From the sequence record NC_025447.1: a stretch of DNA of 64,000 nucleotides. One strand, given 5' to 3'. Below the pieces are notes generated by a model. It worked only from the letters and a program-made list of their open reading frames with translations. It was not told where the DNA came from and ran no database searches. The stretch is from Escherichia phage 121Q. Both the position numbers and the translations under genes were made by a program. Shown piece after piece: positions 18,000 to 24,127 of the stretch; position 1 is the first letter of the stretch; every line of letters begins with the position of its first letter.

Positions 18000-20789
18000 A
18001 TGTTAAACAATAATATTGATAATATTGTACAACTTCTTTATGGGCATCACAAATTTATTGAAAGAAATACTGGTGATACAATAGACCCAACAGTACAACA
18101 TTATGTGGTGAACAATCAGGGTGTTTTGGCGAACAACCGTCATTTTATTAACTATTCTGCAATGGAAGGTCAACCAAACGGTGACGGAACAACAGAAGGT
18201 CAAAGTCTATTAATTTTAGGATACATTTATGCGTATCTGGCAACAAATGATCCAATGTTTTTAGATAAGGCAAAGTGGTATTGGGACGCATATCATCAGT
18301 ACTTTTATGCTGGACGTGAATTACCAGATCCACCTACACCACTACAATGTAACTGGATAGTTAATGCCAAAGAACCTATATTGGCTAACTGGCCTTTAGC
18401 TGATGATGGCTGGCCCACACATGGTGGTTTCAAGGGAGTAGAATTTACATTTACTAATGGTCAATGTAAAATACCACATGGTGCACCATATTATGGTCAG
18501 TTCTTGGATAAAGTGACATTTGCATTCAAAGGTGCGTTAGCATGGAACCAAATAAATGCTTCAGTAAAAGCATTATTACCAGATGGTAGTGTTGATTGGG
18601 ATACACCAGGTGAACAATATGATGTTGACTGGATTATCGATTTCATGGGTAGAAAAATCGACTGGGATGGTAATATTTTAGCAGAAGGTTTTGACGAATC
18701 TGAAAAAGGAACTGTTCAATTAAAGAATACAACAATTAATGGTGTATATAAATTAAATTTTGCAAATCGTCAACCAGTAGAATATGGTGGTGTGATAATT
18801 CAACGAAATGAAATGCAACACAACCGCCCTCTTCATGTTCCAATTGATTTGGAATTTGCTGATAACGCATCAGATGCAGAATTATGGTTTAGTGATGCTT
18901 CTTATTTGTTATATAAAATAACAAAAGAAAGAAAACATTATTTGGGTTGGAAATGTTCACTACTAACGTGTTATGCTTATGGTGATATTGACTCCAGAGA
19001 TAAATTTTTCAGACAAAGTACAATTGTAACCACACCATTCACTGATGGTATTTCCTATGAATATTTTTATCCTAGTGATGCTATTGCTAAGTTTGGTAGA
19101 AATTCTCTAGGATATATTACTATCAGGCAAGACCAAAGTGCACAAAGTACTATGGAACAACAAGCTATTTGGTTCAGGGTCAATGCTGATTCTAAATTAC
19201 TTGTAGACTATGGTGGTGTATGTGATGATGGTAAGCCGTTATCATTTAAACCAGTACTGGAATTGTCAAAAACAAAAAATGACCATGATGTTGTTCGTTA
19301 TCGTTGTGGCTTACCGGAAAGTAAAGACCAAAATATCACACATTCATTAACACCTTTAAGTGCATTTGTTAGAGAAAAGAAAGCAGATGGTTTCCCTTAT
19401 ATAATTGCTGATAGTAGAATTGTTGTTCCTTATGGTGCAGCTACGTCCGAAATGATATATAGTACTGATATATTAGTTACACGCCGCGATACCATTAATC
19501 AGTTAGTTTGTGGTGAAGATGATGGTGCTGTTATTGGATTTTGGCTATTAGCAACAAATAAGTCTGAAGTTAAATCTTTTACCTATCGTTCATATGAAGA
19601 TGATTACAATATAAGAATTGTAGATGATAATGGTTGGAGATGGTGGTGGATGATTCCTGCAACACACGGGGAATGGACTACAATCACACTAAGTTCCGAT
19701 ACATTACGTTTATCTGGGTATCAGCCAAATCATCCAAGTTCTGACCCAAGACCAGATGCACCAGTTTATAGTGAACTAGAAGATATTACTATTTTACCTG
19801 ATACAACCCCAGTAGATGGTGTTGCTGCAATAATTGATTGGTATTGTATTAATGACATTCCAGAATTATACACGGATGCTGACGGTGATGACTATACTAT
19901 GACATTTTCAATAACAATTGCAGGTGAATCACCATATACTGCACAGTTAGGGGATTGTGTAATCAAGGATTATTTGTTAAACTCATTGCATTACACACCA
20001 GGAACAATACCATTTTCTAACATCACTGACCCGTATGCGAACCAGTATTCAGGATGGCGTGGTTTACCGTATCCAGGTTATCAATATCCTGTGATATATT
20101 GTTTTAAAGACCAGCCAGTAGATAACACACGCTTAGGAAACATGTTAAGCTTTATGAAAGATTCCCAAACATGGTTTACTCAACAATTCGGTACTGTTGG
20201 TCCGTGTGCACAAGCATATGTTTGGAACCGCTGGGATAACTTAAAATATGGTGAACCAGATACATTTACTATGCTACATTGGGGTGATCAAGCATGGAGT
20301 GGGTATGAACCACGTGCGTTCTTTGGGGCTGCCAGAGCATGGCAAGAACTCGCAGAGAGAGGAATTGAACCACCAGCAGATCTTGTTGAATTTTGTGAGA
20401 ATTGGATTCACTTTTTAATTCAATTTCAAAAAGATAATGATGGTCGTTCACCAACAATCTTCAATAAAGATGGCACAGTTGAAGGTCCAGATTGGGACTT
20501 TACAGGTCATATGTGTGGGTTGTGGTTAGCTGGGGCTTGTGCTGCTGGATTGGCTGGATGTAAAATAGAAGGTCTAACAACACTCGCTGATAACTTAGTT
20601 CTCGAACTTCAAAAGAATTATGTTATTGTAAATCCAGGTTCACCAATGAATGGTTCATGGAGTCCAGCAGTTAGAGAAGGTACTGATAATGGTATGTTTT
20701 TTGGTTTCTGGGCAGGTGAGATTATGCGTGGATTGGGATTATACTCAATGTACCGCTTAAACACACCAAATCGTTTCCGTGATTTATAA
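18000..20789 (+). CDS. large hypothetical protein, Trp/Tyr-rich (possibly virion-associated)
   Basis: 929-aa ORF, ATGA-type coupling to upstream gene; aromatic-rich (WRWWWMIP, FFGFWAGE); function not assignable by eye. Confidence 0.55.
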   Translation: MLNNNIDNIVQLLYGHHKFIERNTGDTIDPTVQHYVVNNQGVLANNRHFINYSAMEGQPNGDGTTEGQSLLILGYIYAYLATNDPMFLDKAKWYWDAYHQYFYAGRELPDPPTPLQCNWIVNAKEPILANWPLADDGWPTHGGFKGVEFTFTNGQCKIPHGAPYYGQFLDKVTFAFKGALAWNQINASVKALLPDGSVDWDTPGEQYDVDWIIDFMGRKIDWDGNILAEGFDESEKGTVQLKNTTINGVYKLNFANRQPVEYGGVIIQRNEMQHNRPLHVPIDLEFADNASDAELWFSDASYLLYKITKERKHYLGWKCSLLTCYAYGDIDSRDKFFRQSTIVTTPFTDGISYEYFYPSDAIAKFGRNSLGYITIRQDQSAQSTMEQQAIWFRVNADSKLLVDYGGVCDDGKPLSFKPVLELSKTKNDHDVVRYRCGLPESKDQNITHSLTPLSAFVREKKADGFPYIIADSRIVVPYGAATSEMIYSTDILVTRRDTINQLVCGEDDGAVIGFWLLATNKSEVKSFTYRSYEDDYNIRIVDDNGWRWWWMIPATHGEWTTITLSSDTLRLSGYQPNHPSSDPRPDAPVYSELEDITILPDTTPVDGVAAIIDWYCINDIPELYTDADGDDYTMTFSITIAGESPYTAQLGDCVIKDYLLNSLHYTPGTIPFSNITDPYANQYSGWRGLPYPGYQYPVIYCFKDQPVDNTRLGNMLSFMKDSQTWFTQQFGTVGPCAQAYVWNRWDNLKYGEPDTFTMLHWGDQAWSGYEPRAFFGAARAWQELAERGIEPPADLVEFCENWIHFLIQFQKDNDGRSPTIFNKDGTVEGPDWDFTGHMCGLWLAGACAAGLAGCKIEGLTTLADNLVLELQKNYVIVNPGSPMNGSWSPAVREGTDNGMFFGFWAGEIMRGLGLYSMYRLNTPNRFRDL

Positions 20790-20790
20790 C

Positions 20791-20819
20791 TTGACATAGA
20801 AAAAGTAATTATGTATAAT
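20791..20819 (+). promoter_or_regulatory. sigma70-like promoter
   Basis: TTGACA - 17 nt - TATAAT, with TG immediately upstream of the -10 hexamer. Confidence 0.55.
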
Positions 20820-20820
20820 C

Positions 20821-20852
20821 AGAGAACTTCATATGGAGTTCTCTTTTTTTTA
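20821..20852 (+). terminator. terminator-like hairpin
   Basis: AGAGAACT-tcatatgg-AGTTCTCT followed by T8; placed immediately after the promoter at 20791. Confidence 0.5.
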
Positions 20853-20864
20853 TAAGGTGATAAA

Positions 20865-21284
20865 ATGTTAAATGAACGTATTAAAAATGCACTACATGTA
20901 TTGAACCAAGAAGTCAATTCTATTCATAAAAGTACTGACCGTTATAAAGTAATGCATGAAATCAAACAAGAATTGGAATCTATTAATAAGGGAGAGTGGT
21001 GGTATCTTCAGCCCGAATATCAAACTCGTGAATTAAACGATGTTGAAAAAGAAATTGTCAAATTCATCACTACTCGTTATTGTGATACATCAGAGAATGA
21101 TGTATCAGCGAACTTCAATCTTACTAAATTGGAAGTCGAAGAAAAATTCCATTTTGATTGGCTTGATTGGATTGAAATGGTAATGGAACTAGAAGAAAAA
21201 TTCAATGTTGAAGTTGATGAAAAGTTCGAGAATAATGAAACTAAGCTGTATGAACTAGTAGAACATATTCAAAAAATGTTGTAA
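20865..21284 (+). CDS. hypothetical acidic protein
   Basis: 139-aa ORF. Confidence 0.5.
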   Translation: MLNERIKNALHVLNQEVNSIHKSTDRYKVMHEIKQELESINKGEWWYLQPEYQTRELNDVEKEIVKFITTRYCDTSENDVSANFNLTKLEVEEKFHFDWLDWIEMVMELEEKFNVEVDEKFENNETKLYELVEHIQKML

Positions 21285-21337
21285 AACTATACAATTGTAT
21301 ACTCTAAATAATATCATCAACTATAGGAGATATTATT

Positions 21338-21712
21338 ATGAGTATGTTAGAAATAATTGTTTCAAAAATTCTTATTCCATTTTGGAAACCAATTTCTTTT
21401 GTATTATTAATTGGCGGTTCAGCTTATGCTGGTTGGGAAGCTAATACTTATTACAGTGGATATCAACAAAGCATAGAGCAACAAATAGCTAAAAAAGTTG
21501 ATACCGCCTTGGATAAAATGCAACAAGAAAATGCAAAAAATTACCTTGAAACTAAAAAAATCATGGAAGATAATGCTAAAGTTATTGAAACAAAGGTTCC
21601 TTTTATTGTAGAACGTGAAGTTTATAAGAATGTATGTTTAGATGAAGATGGTGTAAAAGTACTGAATGAACTAAAACAAAATTCTCAAGCAGCGAGGAAT
21701 AAATTCAAATGA
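21338..21712 (+). CDS. putative i-spanin (inner-membrane spanin subunit)
   Basis: N-terminal TM segment (ILIPFWKPISFVLLIGGSAYAGW) followed by a charged, helical periplasmic region; ATGA overlap with a downstream lipoprotein gene. Confidence 0.5.
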   Translation: MSMLEIIVSKILIPFWKPISFVLLIGGSAYAGWEANTYYSGYQQSIEQQIAKKVDTALDKMQQENAKNYLETKKIMEDNAKVIETKVPFIVEREVYKNVCLDEDGVKVLNELKQNSQAARNKFK

Positions 21713-22017
21713 AAAAATTATTAGTTCCAATGATTTCTTTTTTAATTATAAGTGGGTGTGCCGAGCAAGTAAAACTACAATCCCCCGCACCAATTAAACA
21801 AGAAATTCTGTTAGAAAGATGTGATGATGATACACCTCTACCACAAAAAATTATGATTGACAAAAATGGTTTTAAAGGTTATGATGGTGCAGAAATTCTT
21901 AAAGTACTTACTCGTTGGGATGCAGTCTACAATGAATGTGCTTTAAAACACGACGCATTGATTAAAACTATTCGTGATTTACAAGGTAAAGATATTAAAA
22001 TCAATATCAAGGAATAA
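21709..22017 (+). CDS. putative o-spanin (outer-membrane lipoprotein spanin subunit)
   Basis: MKKLLVPMISFLIISGCAEQ: signal peptide with lipobox I-S-G-C; small protein with additional Cys residues. Confidence 0.55.
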   Translation: MKKLLVPMISFLIISGCAEQVKLQSPAPIKQEILLERCDDDTPLPQKIMIDKNGFKGYDGAEILKVLTRWDAVYNECALKHDALIKTIRDLQGKDIKINIKE

Positions 22018-22018
22018 A

Positions 22019-22630
22019 ATGAACAAATATCATGTTTACTATACGACAAAATTATCACTTCTTGAAGAATTAAATCAACGAAGTACTAAGATGAAACGCT
22101 ACACTTTAAATGGTATTACTTTTCGATATTTCCCACAAAAAGTTCTTACTTTTGTTAAGAATCCAAAATGCGTGGCATGTGGGATTGAAGCTACTGAAGT
22201 ACGCATTGAACGTTCATTATGTTCTGATCCAGTATATGGTAAACCACATTTAAATGTATATGCTGTATGTGGTCTTTATGAAGTTTTAATGACAGTTGAC
22301 CATAATCATCTGGCATCTAAGGGTGGACCTGATTTAGAGTCAAACTTTAATACTATGTGCTCCAGATGTAATCAACTACGTTCGAATAAAACTGAAACAG
22401 TTGATGAGTTTCTTGAGAAAGTTAAAGGTCGTAATCTTCTCCAAGAACATATGAATAATTTCTTTAATGTACAAAAAAAGAAAAATAACATTGACAAGTC
22501 GAAACTACTAGAAGAACGTAGGTTACGTCAAGAATTATGGGAAACTGATCATCTATGGCATGTTCGAGAGTTTGGTCGTCATATGAAAGCTTTGAAAAAA
22601 GAACAGAAGAAATTGAATAAACATGATTGA
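22019..22630 (+). CDS. HNH endonuclease (free-standing homing-endonuclease-like)
   Basis: Start moved to ATG 22019 (RBS AAGGA); HNH core MTVDHNHLASKGGPDLESNFNTMCSRCNQLRSN plus N-terminal CxxC. Confidence 0.65.
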   Translation: MNKYHVYYTTKLSLLEELNQRSTKMKRYTLNGITFRYFPQKVLTFVKNPKCVACGIEATEVRIERSLCSDPVYGKPHLNVYAVCGLYEVLMTVDHNHLASKGGPDLESNFNTMCSRCNQLRSNKTETVDEFLEKVKGRNLLQEHMNNFFNVQKKKNNIDKSKLLEERRLRQELWETDHLWHVREFGRHMKALKKEQKKLNKHD

Positions 22631-22643
22631 TATGATATTATAG

Positions 22644-22671
22644 GGACTTGAGTATTCAAGTCCTTTTTTTT
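22644..22671 (+). terminator. rho-independent terminator
   Basis: GGACTTGA-gtat-TCAAGTCC followed by T8. Confidence 0.7.
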
Positions 22672-22682
22672 GGAGAAAATAA

Positions 22683-23039
22683 ATGAAATCTAAAATCTTT
22701 TTACCGCAGTTAATGTGGCATCTGGCAGAGTTAGATGAAGATGATGAATATACTGACTATGGTACATGGGATGACAGTACTGAATCATTCAATCCAGATG
22801 TTAAGTACAAAATCATTAGTAATGAAAGTAAAGGGCATAGACGATGGACAGAAGAATTTGATCTAGTTTTTCTTGACATGAACACGAACAAATATTATCA
22901 TTGTACGTATGAACGAGGTTTAACAGAAGATAGACCAGCAGAACCATTCAGAAATGAAACTGATGGTGTTAAGTGCTATGAAGTTTCTGTTACCAGAGAA
23001 GAAATTATCACTTATCGAACTTTGTGGAAATACTTGTAA
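22683..23039 (+). CDS. hypothetical acidic protein
   Basis: 118-aa ORF. Confidence 0.5.
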   Translation: MKSKIFLPQLMWHLAELDEDDEYTDYGTWDDSTESFNPDVKYKIISNESKGHRRWTEEFDLVFLDMNTNKYYHCTYERGLTEDRPAEPFRNETDGVKCYEVSVTREEIITYRTLWKYL

Positions 23040-23437
23040 TGCTAAAAGAATTAGATTTTTCAAACTTAGAAATCATCAGTGCTGTTAAAAATATCTCTGA
23101 CTTTGGAGATGAGAAGTCAGTACTGGTAACTGTTACATTCGTCAAAGAACAGGATAGCTATAGCCATTTAGATGGTATTGAAGAACTAATTCACAAGACT
23201 AATCTACAAAACGATGGTAAACTCATTAAGCTTCAGGCTTCCTATACGCAAAAATCGTCATTTTTTGTAGACCTAAATAATGTAGTCAAGGTGGTATACA
23301 ATCACCCTGAACACAAATACAGGAACACGACAAGAAACGAGAATGATGCTATAGACTCCAATATCAAAGAGGATGTCGAATTCATCAACACAATTTTTGA
23401 TCGTTGTTCCAAGGATTTGAAAAAGGTATACATGTAA
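23039..23437 (+). CDS. hypothetical protein
   Basis: Start placed at TAATG overlap (23039) rather than track start 23024. Confidence 0.45.
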   Translation: MLKELDFSNLEIISAVKNISDFGDEKSVLVTVTFVKEQDSYSHLDGIEELIHKTNLQNDGKLIKLQASYTQKSSFFVDLNNVVKVVYNHPEHKYRNTTRNENDAIDSNIKEDVEFINTIFDRCSKDLKKVYM

Positions 23438-23438
23438 C

Positions 23439-23466
23439 GGGACATAACACATCCTAGTGATATAAT
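23439..23466 (+). promoter_or_regulatory. sigma70-like extended -10 promoter (GGGACA-N16-TGA-TATAAT)
   Basis: cGGGACA ... gTGATATAAT; same architecture recurs at 34184 and 53197. Confidence 0.5.
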
Positions 23467-23744
23467 GTATATTGTAAAATGACAACGGACATTGAAAAAT
23501 GGATAATGAGAACCTACTTCTCTTGAAAATGTAAAGGATAGATGAGCTTTACCGTTGTAGCGAACAGCAAAAGAAACCTGTTAGAGTACTGGCATTCAAA
23601 CAAACACGATGTAAGACCACGAATCACGGCGACACGGCTGTATAAAGAACTCCGATAAGCATACAGAGAGTTCCTAGATAGATGTATAAGGTTCGCACCT
23701 TACCAGATTTGCTAAGGGAGTTTAAGAATAGCGGACGCAATTTT

Positions 23745-23773
23745 ACAAGAAAGTTGCGTCCAAAATTTGAGAA
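23745..23773 (+). repeat. 29-nt direct repeat, copy 1
   Basis: acaagaaagTTGCGtccaaaatttgagaa; differs at 3 positions from copy 2; overlaps hairpin GGACGCAA...TTGCGTCC. Confidence 0.6.
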
Positions 23774-23896
23774 CAGGTACTACTTTGATCGAATAGAGTT
23801 AGTACTGAGTGCTGTTGATGAAAAGACCAGCGACCGTTGCATATGACTGCGATAGAGAGAAACCGAGCAACCCGCTTTCGCTCTCTAAATTTTGGT

Positions 23897-23925
23897 ACAA
23901 GAAAGATCCGTCCAAAATTTGAGAA
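23897..23925 (+). repeat. 29-nt direct repeat, copy 2
   Basis: acaagaaagATCCGtccaaaatttgagaa; flanked by inverted repeat AAATTTTGG / CCAAAATTT. Confidence 0.6.
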
Positions 23926-23964
23926 ATTCGCAATTCGATAATATCCGATGCCATCATCGTCAAG

Positions 23965-23988
23965 AGAGACTTAATTGTCTCTTTTTTA
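23965..23988 (+). terminator. terminator-like hairpin inside the non-coding region
   Basis: AGAGAC-ttaatt-GTCTCT followed by TTTTTTATT. Confidence 0.5.
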
Positions 23989-24127
23989 TTACCTTCATTC
24001 CCCTGCGGGGGGATGTAATAGTCCTCAACAAATCCCGTCAAGTTTTTAAAGTACATTATCATTTTCAGAAGGAACTAGTTTACGAAGTAAACGCAGTGAC
24101 TTCTTGAGTTACGAGAGAACGAAGTGA

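What the first reader, a model, noticed from the sequence alone, without database searches (positions are those of the whole stretch)
21338..22630. Spanin pair followed by a free-standing HNH endonuclease
A TM protein overlapping a lipoprotein has the classic two-component spanin arrangement, although the 'lysozyme' is encoded 8 kb away. The HNH endonuclease immediately downstream, ending at a strong terminator, looks like an inserted mobile homing gene.
Basis: partly seen in the sequence, partly recalled or inferred. Interest (0 to 1): 0.35.

Follow-up and report, generated by a model that had tools for sequence, protein, structure and literature searches.

The report
Spanin operon with old HNH gene
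This stretch of a PBECO4-like giant E. coli phage holds an already catalogued pair of outer-membrane-disrupting lysis genes plus an HNH nuclease gene that is optional among related phages but an old, conserved resident in this lineage, so the finding is largely ordinary.

Summary
The window is an Asteriusvirus (PBECO4-like jumbo phage, 97-98% identical to published genomes).

- **Genes:** 21338-21712 encodes an i-spanin. 21709-22017 encodes an o-spanin lipoprotein, with a 4-nt ATGA overlap. 22019-22630 encodes an HNH nuclease that ends at a strong terminator (22642-22673). A LysM/GH24 endolysin lies 8 kb downstream.
- **Spanins:** the PBECO4/121Q pair is already listed in the 2018 spanin census.
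- **HNH, support for insertion:** the "inserted mobile homing gene" reading is only partly supported. Precise empty sites exist in EJP2, Serratia BF, pEa_SNUABM_47, GAP32, CBB, XbC2, Kaldavass and four uncultivated contigs. In carriers, the HNH ORF sits between the o-spanin stop codon and a conserved promoter-box/terminator element.
- **HNH, evidence against recent mobility:** all 34 Asteriusvirus relatives have the gene, as do RaK2-, Munch-, Hallingskeid- and Yen9-type phages. It diverges in step with the spanins (69% down to 34% identity), has dN/dS of 0.07-0.12, and keeps its catalytic residues. It is an old, selected resident.
- **Mosaic junctions:** two independent junctions abut its 3' end, which fits nuclease-stimulated recombination but does not prove it.

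Interest is low. Separately, a covariation-supported, roughly 500-nt structured RNA with no Rfam match lies at 23473-24020 and deserves its own follow-up.

The parts
20791..20819 (+). Sigma-70-type promoter-like site (TTGACA-17-TATAAT, 12/12) heading the ACP-like/spanin/HNH transcription unit
20821..20851 (+). Hairpin plus T-run directly after that promoter. It terminates the upstream tail-protein gene and is the same composite promoter-hairpin element as the one after the HNH gene
20865..21284 (+). Acyl-carrier-protein-like gene, first gene of the unit and syntenic with the spanins in all Rak2-like genera. The phosphopantetheine-attachment Ser is replaced here (DWLD instead of DSLD)
21338..21712 (+). 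i-spanin: N-terminal TM anchor, long helical periplasmic domain, conserved Cys100
21709..22017 (+). o-spanin: outer-membrane lipoprotein (lipobox ISGC, +2 Ala) with two conserved periplasmic Cys (38, 77)
22019..22630 (+). Free-standing HNH (H-N-N variant) zinc-finger nuclease gene, translationally coupled to the o-spanin. It is an optional cassette among Rak2-like phages
22613..22641 (+). Promoter-like site (TTGAAT-17-TATTAT with TG) whose -35 lies in the last HNH codons. The -10-like box GATATTATA is conserved in HNH-plus and HNH-minus phages
22642..22673 (+). Intrinsic terminator (10-bp stem, T8) ending the unit. It is homologous to the hairpin that follows the o-spanin directly in empty-site genomes
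22665..22705 (.). Crossover interval of a mosaic junction. To its left the window is 99-100% identical to PBECO4 and about 80% to fEgEco12; to its right it is about 99-100% identical to fEgEco12 and 82-95% to PBECO4
30158..31117 (+). Endolysin candidate (N-terminal hydrophobic segment, LysM, GH24 phage lysozyme), unlinked to the spanins

Best explanation
Bases 20791-22673 form one transcription unit of a PBECO4-like jumbo phage: ACP-like gene, i-spanin, o-spanin, HNH nuclease.

**Spanins.** The two spanins form a 'separated' two-component spanin. The inner-membrane-anchored helical i-spanin and the outer-membrane lipoprotein o-spanin bridge the periplasm. Once the unlinked LysM/GH24 endolysin has removed the peptidoglycan, they disrupt the outer membrane. 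This mechanism is inferred from the Rz/Rz1 and T4 PseT.3/PseT.2 paradigms.

**HNH gene.** It is a discrete optional cassette that entered exactly between the o-spanin stop codon and the unit's promoter-box/terminator element in an ancestor of several Rak2-like lineages. In this lineage it has since been inherited vertically, is co-transcribed and translationally coupled with the spanins, and is kept functional by purifying selection. It is not a recent insertion.

**Favoured mechanism (inferred, not shown).** The HNH is a beta-beta-alpha-metal nuclease of the free-standing homing/exclusion type. In mixed infections it would cut relatives that lack it near the empty site, so that repair copies the gene together with the adjoining spanin module. 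This would explain why mosaic junctions sit at its 3' edge.
For: **Identity and synteny.** The window is 97-98% identical to phAPEC6, BF17 and PBECO4. The gene order ACP-like / i-spanin / o-spanin / [HNH] / [X] / DUF7325 holds across genera.

**Spanin features.** The literature census lists PBECO_4/121Q as separated spanins.

**Cassette boundaries.**
- In HNH-plus genomes the ORF starts 0-12 nt after the o-spanin stop and is followed by a GATATTATA-like box, a GC hairpin and a T-run.
- In HNH-minus genomes (EJP2, BF, GAP32, CBB) the same box and hairpin follow the o-spanin directly. The gene maps of Kaldavass, XbC2 and pEa_SNUABM_47 show the same direct o-spanin-to-next-gene spacing.
- Four further uncultivated Mimas-like contigs are also empty.

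**Residency.**
- The HNH is present in 34 of 34 Asteriusvirus hits.
- Among phage records with the spanins, it is found in Klebsiella 10/10, Salmonella 8/8 and Yersinia 4/4, against Erwinia 1/8 and Serratia, Cronobacter, Pectobacterium and Xanthomonas 0/2 each.
- The HNH identity matrix tracks the i-spanin matrix: 69/64, 54/58, 41/44 and 34/36%. The trees are broadly congruent.
- dN/dS is 0.07-0.12, at or below that of neighbouring genes.
- CxxC...TVDH...NFNTMCxxCN..R and the N- and C-terminal regions are invariant or conserved in 13 homologues.
- The predicted model is confident (pLDDT 82).

**Recombination at the 3' edge.**
- The window/fEgEco12/PBECO4 crossover maps to 22665-22705.
- Yen9-04 (HNH-plus) compared with BF (HNH-minus, same genus) shows a 45-80% identity patch covering the ACP-like gene and the spanins. 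The patch ends at the HNH indel and is flanked by 80-93% identity on both sides.
Against: - No cleavage, homing or lysis experiment exists for these genes.
- The HNH tree gives no sign of horizontal transfer, so the pattern can be explained by losses alone.
- Parsimony does not separate ancestral presence with 3 losses from origin plus transfer plus loss.
- Patches of low identity also occur elsewhere between Yen9-04 and BF. Conserved promoter/terminator elements are plausible crossover points in their own right, so the junctions at the HNH edge may be coincidental.
- No NUMOD, AP2 or other homing-endonuclease DNA-binding module was detected.
- Fold searches match only the generic HNH core.
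- My crude heptad test gave no clear coiled-coil signal for the i-spanin.
Confidence: 0.72

Rival explanations
1. The HNH is a domesticated housekeeping nuclease, for example for host-DNA breakdown, processing of branched DNA, or help with packaging. Its patchy distribution would then reflect simple loss where another nuclease substitutes. It does not home.
For: - Strong purifying selection over the whole length.
- Fixed in every sampled member of four or five lineages and co-diverging with its neighbours.
- Integrated into an operon with translational coupling.
- No typical homing-endonuclease DNA-binding modules.
- Its CxxC...DH...N...CxxCN layout resembles T4 endonuclease VII, with a weak hit to phrog_1035 'endonuclease VII' at 8.8e-4.
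Against: - About a quarter of related phages do without it, with a cleanly excised site.
- No Pfam Endonuclease_7 match at E<=0.1.
- The gene is not next to the terminase.
- A published genome description of related Eneladusvirus phages reports a separate endonuclease VII (PMC7760394).
- Mosaic junctions abut the gene.
Confidence: 0.3
2. One reading: a recently inserted, currently mobile homing endonuclease gene that is foreign to this genome.
For: - Free-standing ORF tucked between a conserved gene and its terminator.
- Empty-site relatives exist.
- There is a precedent for a homing endonuclease at a spanin locus: a GIY-YIG gene lies between the spanins of Shivani and phiR201 (PMC6139136).
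Against: - Present in 34 of 34 close relatives.
- 34-69% identity across genera, in step with the flanking genes.
- No closer-than-expected copies anywhere among 50,697 phage records or in the protein database. The protein search gave only 16 cluster representatives, the named ones from this phage group.
- The one apparently truncated copy, in SHEFM2K, is explained by a +2 A change in a homopolymer run, typical of a sequencing error.
Confidence: 0.07
3. The TM protein and lipoprotein are not lysis proteins. They would instead be, for example, a superinfection-exclusion or 'lytic conversion' lipoprotein pair, as one genome annotation (fEgEco12) suggests.
For: - fEgEco12 annotates them as 'cell division protein FtsB' and 'lytic conversion lipoprotein'.
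- They are unlinked to the endolysin.
- The unit's promoter is a perfect sigma-70 consensus, which suggests early expression.
- PHROG 2425, the o-spanin's family, carries no function label.
Against: - The PHROG 1152 spanin hit at 6.6e-29.
- Every architectural criterion of two-component spanins is met.
- The T4 spanins are likewise unlinked to holin and endolysin and carry two essential o-spanin cysteines (PMC6139136).
- The pair is listed in the spanin census.
Confidence: 0.05

Closest known systems
PBECO4 / 121Q two-component spanins (separated class) in the spanin census of Kongari et al. 2018, PMC6139136
   Same: These are the same genes. The i-spanin is 100% and the o-spanin 99% identical to PBECO4. 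They are listed as an i-spanin family (PBECO_4, 121Q) and an o-spanin family (PBECO_4, 121Q, GAP32).
   Different: Nothing of substance. The census did not include the later Rak2-like genomes, in which this family is now seen in about 70 records.
T4 PseT.3 / PseT.2 spanins
   Same: - Separated architecture.
- Genes unlinked to holin and endolysin.
- i-spanin periplasmic domain of two helices joined by a short linker (against the description).
- o-spanin with exactly two conserved periplasmic cysteines.
   Different: - No sequence relationship seen: T4-type phages were absent from the tblastn hits.
- The i-spanin here carries a conserved Cys (C100), whereas PseT.3 has none. Munch and fENko-Kae01 have lost it.
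Lambda Rz / Rz1
   Same: Same functional class: a type II inner-membrane protein plus an outer-membrane lipoprotein with periplasmic cysteines. There is a weak sub-threshold Pfam LysC (Rz1-like) hit at 15.3 bits.
   Different: Lambda's genes are embedded and sit in a lysis cassette. Here they are separated (4-nt overlap) and 8 kb from the endolysin.
Free-standing HNH homing endonucleases of T-even phages (Mob family; from general knowledge)
   Same: - A stand-alone HNH ORF inserted in an intergenic spot between conserved genes.
- Presence/absence polymorphism among related phages with precise empty sites.
- Mosaic junctions next to the gene.
   Different: - Fixed and co-diverging in whole genera.
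- No recognised DNA-binding modules.
- No cleavage or homing data.
GIY-YIG homing endonuclease gene between the spanin genes of T5-like phages Shivani and phiR201 (PMC6139136)
   Same: A selfish-type nuclease gene lodged in a spanin locus.
   Different: It belongs to a different nuclease family. It also sits between the i- and o-spanin genes rather than after the o-spanin.
T4 endonuclease VII (gp49)
   Same: CxxC ... DH ... N ... CxxCN zinc-binding H-N-N layout. Weak phrog_1035 hit.
   Different: - No Pfam Endonuclease_7 match.
- Extra N-terminal beta-rich domain and C-terminal helical domain.
- Related phages are reported to have a separate endonuclease VII.

Membership tests
Two-component spanin (i-spanin + o-spanin) | i-spanin: a single N-terminal transmembrane domain with the rest periplasmic and largely alpha-helical | tested here: met
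   Only one hydrophobic segment, at residues about 6-33. The single-sequence AF2 model has helices 3-98 and 103-123 at pLDDT 77.
Two-component spanin (i-spanin + o-spanin) | o-spanin: a small lipoprotein with a lipobox, a Cys, and no Asp at +2 (outer-membrane sorting) | tested here: met
   ISGC at residues 14-17 with +2 Ala in the window. A lipobox Cys is conserved in 15 genomes, none with Asp at +2.
Two-component spanin (i-spanin + o-spanin) | Adjacent genes in embedded, overlapped or separated architecture | tested here: met
   4-nt ATGA overlap. The census counts overlaps of up to 8 bp as 'separated'.
Two-component spanin (i-spanin + o-spanin) | At least one periplasmic cysteine available for intermolecular disulfides | tested here: met
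   i-spanin C100 and o-spanin C38 and C77. The two o-spanin Cys are conserved in all 15 genomes.
Two-component spanin (i-spanin + o-spanin) | Sequence membership in a recognised spanin family | tested here: met
   PHROG 1152 'Rz-like spanin' at 6.6e-29. PBECO_4/121Q are listed in the census tables. The o-spanin reaches only a sub-threshold Pfam LysC hit.
Two-component spanin (i-spanin + o-spanin) | Required for outer-membrane disruption at lysis | not testable with these tools
   Needs mutant lysis phenotypes or complementation of lambda Rz/Rz1 amber mutants.
Free-standing HNH homing endonuclease | Intact HNH / beta-beta-alpha-metal catalytic motif | tested here: met
   PF01844 at 26 bits against a 21.4 cut-off. 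D94, H95, N109, C51/C54 and C114/C117/N118 are invariant in 13 homologues.
Free-standing HNH homing endonuclease | Stand-alone ORF in an intergenic site, with precise empty sites in related genomes | tested here: met
   Empty sites in EJP2, BF, pEa_SNUABM_47, GAP32, CBB, XbC2, Kaldavass and 4 IMG/VR contigs.
Free-standing HNH homing endonuclease | Sporadic distribution among close relatives (ongoing gain and loss) | tested here: not met
   34 of 34 Asteriusvirus genomes carry it. The only within-genus polymorphism is in Eneladusvirus (Yen9-03/04 against BF and the pEa_SNUABM phages).
Free-standing HNH homing endonuclease | Gene phylogeny incongruent with the host-genome phylogeny (horizontal spread) | tested here: not met
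   The HNH identity matrix and NJ tree parallel those of the flanking genes. The trees are short and weakly resolved.
Free-standing HNH homing endonuclease | Accessory DNA-binding modules typical of phage homing endonucleases (NUMOD, IENR1, AP2 and similar) | tested here: not met
   Only HNH and HNH_5 are found in Pfam at E<=0.1. The N- and C-terminal domains have no PDB fold match.
Free-standing HNH homing endonuclease | Site-specific cleavage of the gene-less allele and super-Mendelian inheritance in mixed infection | not testable with these tools
   Needs nuclease assays and phage crosses. The mosaic junctions at the gene's edge are only suggestive.
T4 endonuclease VII-type resolvase | Match to the Endonuclease_7 family (PF02945) | tested here: not met
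   No hit at E<=0.1. Only phrog_1035 at 8.8e-4 over part of the protein.
Terminase-associated HNH (HK97 gp74 type) | Small HNH protein encoded next to the terminase or portal genes | tested here: not met
   The neighbours are spanins, an ACP-like gene and DUF7325. No terminase lies within 20 kb on either side in the annotated relative.

The most novel reading that the evidence does not exclude
The HNH is an active exclusion/homing nuclease that cuts HNH-less Rak2-like relatives next to the o-spanin terminator during co-infection. Repair would then drag the linked spanin (and ACP-like) module into the recipient. This would make the site a nuclease-driven recombination hotspot that shapes lysis-module mosaicism in jumbo phages.
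Probability: 0.25. Interest if true: 0.4.

Novelty: already known. Interest (0 to 1): 0.15.

Why it matters
It matters little by itself. The spanins are already catalogued and the HNH gene is already annotated in RefSeq relatives.

What this analysis adds:
- A precise insertion-site definition for an optional HNH cassette across Rak2-like jumbo phages.
- Evidence that a homing-endonuclease-like gene can stay intact and under selection through genus-level divergence.
- Two mosaic junctions at the gene's edge, which make a nuclease-stimulated recombination hypothesis directly testable with existing phage pairs (Yen9-04 against BF).
- An annotation correction. The Eneladusvirus paper PMC7760394 states that no i-spanin was observable in the pEa_SNUABM phages. 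The 'putative membrane protein' directly upstream of their o-spanin is the i-spanin homologue.

The by-product, a conserved structured RNA of about 500 nt at 23473-24020, is probably of more interest than the finding itself.

Tried and rejected
1. **PDB searches for the HNH.** The sequence search gave only a weak McrA HNH-core hit (E=0.28). The Foldseek search against PDB gave nothing at E<=0.001, only generic HNH cores from McrA, Gme HNH and Cas9. BFVD returned only unnamed or 'HNH endonuclease' phage proteins. None of this yields functional information beyond 'HNH'.
2. **Endonuclease VII idea.** The CxxC/HNN layout prompted it. I dropped it because there is no PF02945 hit and related phages are reported to have their own endonuclease VII.
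3. **Link between the HNH and the structured RNA 0.8 kb downstream.** A partial NCBIfam IscB hit (4e-6, 26 bits against a 175-bit cut-off) suggested an RNA-guided nuclease. I rejected this because the RNA is equally conserved in HNH-less phages.
4. **The truncated HNH in SHEFM2K as a sign of decay.** Rejected: the cause is a +2 A change in a homopolymer run, next to another homopolymer difference, which is most likely a sequencing error.
5. **Gain against loss by parsimony.** Indecisive. Three events are needed either way on the NJ trees.
6. **Crude heptad scoring of the i-spanin.** It did not give a clear coiled-coil register, and no proper coiled-coil predictor was available.
7. **Rfam scans.** Scans of the region and of five related loci returned only chance-level hits.
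Full report
**What the window is.** The 2.3 kb around the finding is 97-98% identical over its full length to Escherichia phages phAPEC6, BF17, G17 and PBECO4. These are about 350-kb 'Rak2-like' jumbo phages of the genus Asteriusvirus. The search found 34 related records, 32 of them covering at least 80% of the query. In RefSeq PBECO4 the three genes are annotated 'Rz-like spanin', 'hypothetical protein' and 'HNH endonuclease'.

**Observation.**
- i-spanin, 21338-21712 (124 aa): a single N-terminal hydrophobic segment and one Cys, C100. It matches PHROG 1152 'Rz-like spanin' at E=6.6e-29. A single-sequence AlphaFold model is one long helix (3-98), a short break at the Cys, then a second helix (103-123). 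This is the two-helix layout described for T4 PseT.3 (PMC6139136).
- o-spanin, 21709-22017 (102 aa): overlaps the i-spanin by ATGA. It has lipobox ISGC, Ala at +2, and two further cysteines at 38 and 77. The lipobox and both cysteines are conserved in all 15 related genomes I compared. T4 PseT.2 likewise has two essential periplasmic cysteines.
- HNH gene: starts at ATG 22019, one base after the o-spanin stop, with an AAGGA Shine-Dalgarno sequence inside the last o-spanin codons. It passes the Pfam HNH threshold.
- Terminator: a 10-bp-stem hairpin with a T8 run at 22642-22673.
- Endolysin candidate: a LysM + GH24 protein with an N-terminal hydrophobic segment at 30158-31117, 8.1 kb downstream.

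**The spanins are already known.** The spanin census of Kongari et al. lists PBECO_4/121Q among the 'separated' two-component spanins. It gives an i-spanin family (PBECO_4, 121Q) and an o-spanin family (PBECO_4, 121Q, GAP32), and it counts overlaps of up to 8 bp as separated. By tblastn both proteins are confined to about 70 phage records, essentially all Rak2-like jumbo phages. A profile-guided scan of IMG/VR added a few 30-45 kb contigs with distant relatives.

**Transcription unit.** A perfect sigma-70 consensus (TTGACA-17-TATAAT, 20791-20819) is followed immediately by a hairpin and T-run (20821-20851), and these precede the ACP-like gene. A second element of the same type (22613-22673) follows the HNH gene. 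The ACP-like gene, both spanins and the HNH therefore look like one unit bracketed by two promoter-hairpin elements. This is an inference from consensus scans only.

**Is the HNH an insertion?** Comparison across genera gives a clear answer.
- The gene order ACP-like / i-spanin / o-spanin / ... / DUF7325 gene (window 23039-23437, PF24011) is conserved throughout.
- The HNH gene is present in all PBECO4-like phages, and in RaK2/K64-1/Muenster, Munch/7t3/SE_PL, fENko-Kae01, Hallingskeid and Yen9-03/04.
- It is absent from EJP2, Serratia BF, pEa_SNUABM_47, GAP32, CBB, XbC2 and Kaldavass. It is also absent from four uncultivated Mimas-like contigs.
- Counted by host genus among records that have the spanins, the HNH is found in Escherichia 30/31, Klebsiella 10/10, Salmonella 8/8, Yersinia 4/4 and Erwinia 1/8. 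It is found in none of the two records each for Serratia, Cronobacter, Pectobacterium and Xanthomonas.
- In empty-site genomes the o-spanin stop is followed by 52-74 nt. This spacer carries a -10-like box (GATATAATA / TGTATTATA), a GC hairpin, a T-run and the GGAG of the next gene.
- In HNH-plus genomes the HNH ORF begins 0-12 nt after the o-spanin stop, and the same box and hairpin follow the HNH stop.

The gene is therefore a discrete cassette between the o-spanin stop and the terminator element.

A second small gene, X (window 22683-23039, PHROG 6343), is also variably present in the same slot. All four combinations of HNH and X occur, and CRJP21 has a further 273-nt gene there. The o-spanin/DUF7325 interval is a general variable slot.

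**Is it recent and mobile?** No.
- The HNH identity matrix parallels that of the i-spanin. Window against Turkey5 is 69/64%, against RaK2 54/58%, against Munch 41/44%, against Hallingskeid 42/38%, and against Yen9-04 34/36%. The NJ trees are broadly congruent.
- The whole-database protein search returned only 16 cluster representatives, and the named ones come from this phage group.
- Nei-Gojobori dN/dS for the HNH is 0.07-0.12 in eight pairwise comparisons. This equals or falls below the values for the spanins (0.04-0.25) and lies well below those for the ACP-like gene (0.06-0.38, mostly 0.16 or higher).
- Conservation covers the two CxxC zinc knuckles, TVDH, NFNTMC..CN..R, the N-terminal beta-rich region and a C-terminal H..WH.RE[YF].R..K motif.
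- The AlphaFold model is confident (pLDDT 82). Only its HNH core finds structural neighbours, namely McrA, Gme HNH and Cas9 HNH, all at E>1.
- The one truncated copy, in SHEFM2K, results from a +2 A change in a homopolymer run and is most likely a sequencing error.

The gene is an old, functional resident.

**Gain or loss.** On trees built from i-spanin + o-spanin + DUF7325 there are two clades.
- In the Mimas/Eneladus clade, only Yen9-03/04 carry the HNH.
- In the Asterius/Alcyoneus/Munch/Hallingskeid/EJP2 clade, only EJP2 lacks it.
- Ancestral presence needs three losses. Origin in the second clade needs one origin, one transfer and one loss. Parsimony cannot decide between these.
- Yen9-04 and BF (same genus) are 80-93% identical on both sides. 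They drop to 45-80% across exactly the ACP-like gene and the spanins, and this patch ends at the HNH indel. In the spanin tree Yen9-04 branches at the base of its clade, yet in the DUF7325 tree it is sister to BF.
- This suggests the ACP/spanin/HNH block entered one of the two backbones by recombination with a divergent relative. That is what co-conversion during homing would produce, but ordinary module exchange would produce it too. Other low-identity genes also occur in the same 24 kb.

**A second junction at the same edge.** The window itself is a mosaic.
- Up to 22643 it differs from PBECO4 at only 2 of about 320 positions, and from 22706 on it differs densely.
- Against fEgEco12 the pattern is the reverse. 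Differences are dense up to 22664, and only 2 occur between 22665 and 23080.
- Synonymous divergence from fEgEco12 drops from 1.28 in the HNH to 0.03 in gene X.
- The crossover therefore lies in 22665-22705, which is 35-75 nt after the HNH stop.

Two independent junctions at the 3' edge of the cassette are suggestive of nuclease-stimulated recombination. I could not test whether such junctions are enriched here relative to the many other promoter-hairpin elements in these genomes.

**Mechanism and rivals.**
- Best supported: a two-component spanin operon carrying an ancient optional HNH cassette.
- For the HNH's role I favour a homing/exclusion nuclease acting against HNH-less relatives (about 0.4). 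The main alternative is a domesticated housekeeping nuclease (about 0.3). The remainder is undecided.
- Recent insertion is essentially excluded.
- The endonuclease VII and terminase-HNH families fail their defining tests.

**Novelty and score.** The spanin pair is catalogued and the HNH gene is annotated, and nothing here would surprise a phage specialist. The added comparative detail (insertion site, co-divergence, junctions) is modest. Interest is 0.15.

**By-product worth its own look.**
- Between the DUF7325 gene and the next gene lies a stretch of about 690 nt (23438-24127) without a credible ORF. It is more conserved than the flanking genes: 97-100% within Asteriusvirus, and 96-100% between Yen9-04 and BF. 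It can be aligned across all Rak2-like genera.
- It starts with a TGnTATAAT extended -10 and ends with a hairpin and T-run.
- RNAalifold on 12 phages predicts 61 pairs, of which 31 show compensatory double changes.
- In the pair-count control, 96.1% of cells are paired, against 40-49% when the partners are slid by 1-3 columns. The structure has 31 covarying pairs against 5-10 in the slid versions and 19.0 +/- 2.5 in shuffles (0 of 500 reach the observed value). The covariation score is 0.50 against about 0.1.
- No Rfam family matches, even at E<=10.
- A conserved-core pattern found it only on jumbo-phage contigs in IMG/VR, 31-378 kb and mostly about 350 kb.
- It occurs in both HNH-plus and HNH-minus phages, so it is unrelated to this finding.

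Noticed in passing
window 23473-24020 (wider conserved stretch 23438-24127): Candidate new structured RNA of about 500 nt with its own extended -10 promoter and terminator. It is conserved across all Rak2-like jumbo-phage genera and is more conserved than the flanking genes. 31 of 61 predicted pairs show compensatory changes; 96% of cells are paired against 40-49% in slid controls. No Rfam match. It contains a conserved box GATCCGTCCAAAATTTGAG, in two copies here at about 23750-23775 and 23901-23926.
   Followed up: partly
window 20865-21284: The ACP-like protein encoded just upstream of the spanins has lost the phosphopantetheine-attachment serine. The motif is DWLD here, DTWD in RaK2 and DNCD in Turkey5. 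GAP32, CBB, BF, Yen9-04 and Munch keep DSLD. It is also the fastest-evolving gene of the unit (dN/dS up to 0.38). An ACP that cannot be loaded, always syntenic with a lipoprotein spanin, is unexplained.
   Followed up: no
L008 2489-2842 (Munch) and L012 2489-2842 (fENko-Kae01): The otherwise conserved C-terminal Cys of the i-spanin (NVCLDEDG in the window) is Ser in these two phages (NPSLDQDG), which leaves the i-spanin without cysteines, as in T4 PseT.3.
   Followed up: no
window 22683-23039, and the slot between the o-spanin and the DUF7325 gene in related loci: Gene X (PHROG 6343) is itself optional. It is present in Asteriusvirus, Munch, Kae01, EJP2 and Hallingskeid, and absent in RaK2, Yen9-04, BF, GAP32 and CBB. 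CRJP21 has an extra 273-nt gene between the HNH and X (L003 4884-5156). The slot is a small hypervariable region.
   Followed up: partly
window about 17460-20789 (tail fibre and 929-aa tail protein): These tail genes lie between the nucleotidyltransferase gene and the ACP-like gene in PBECO4 and SHEFM2K, and the 929-aa protein likewise precedes the ACP-like gene in the window, A4 and Turkey5. They are absent at that position in UE-S1, ph0011 and fEgEco12, where the nucleotidyltransferase directly precedes the ACP-like gene. This looks like a movable receptor-binding module.
   Followed up: no
window 20791-20851 and 22613-22673: Composite elements occur repeatedly, each a sigma-70-like promoter followed immediately by a GC hairpin and T-run. 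The -10-like box plus hairpin is conserved across genera. They coincide with mosaic junctions and may serve as module boundaries.
   Followed up: partly
L022 2456-2821 (pEa_SNUABM_47) and the other pEa_SNUABM phages: The published description of these phages states that an i-spanin was not observable (PMC7760394). The 'putative membrane protein' directly upstream of their o-spanin is a clear i-spanin homologue (42% identity, E about 1e-15).
   Followed up: yes
L013 21219-21713 (SHEFM2K): The HNH gene is annotated as truncated (164 aa) because of an A7-to-A9 homopolymer difference. A neighbouring T-run also differs by one base. This is probably a sequencing artefact rather than gene decay.
   Followed up: yes
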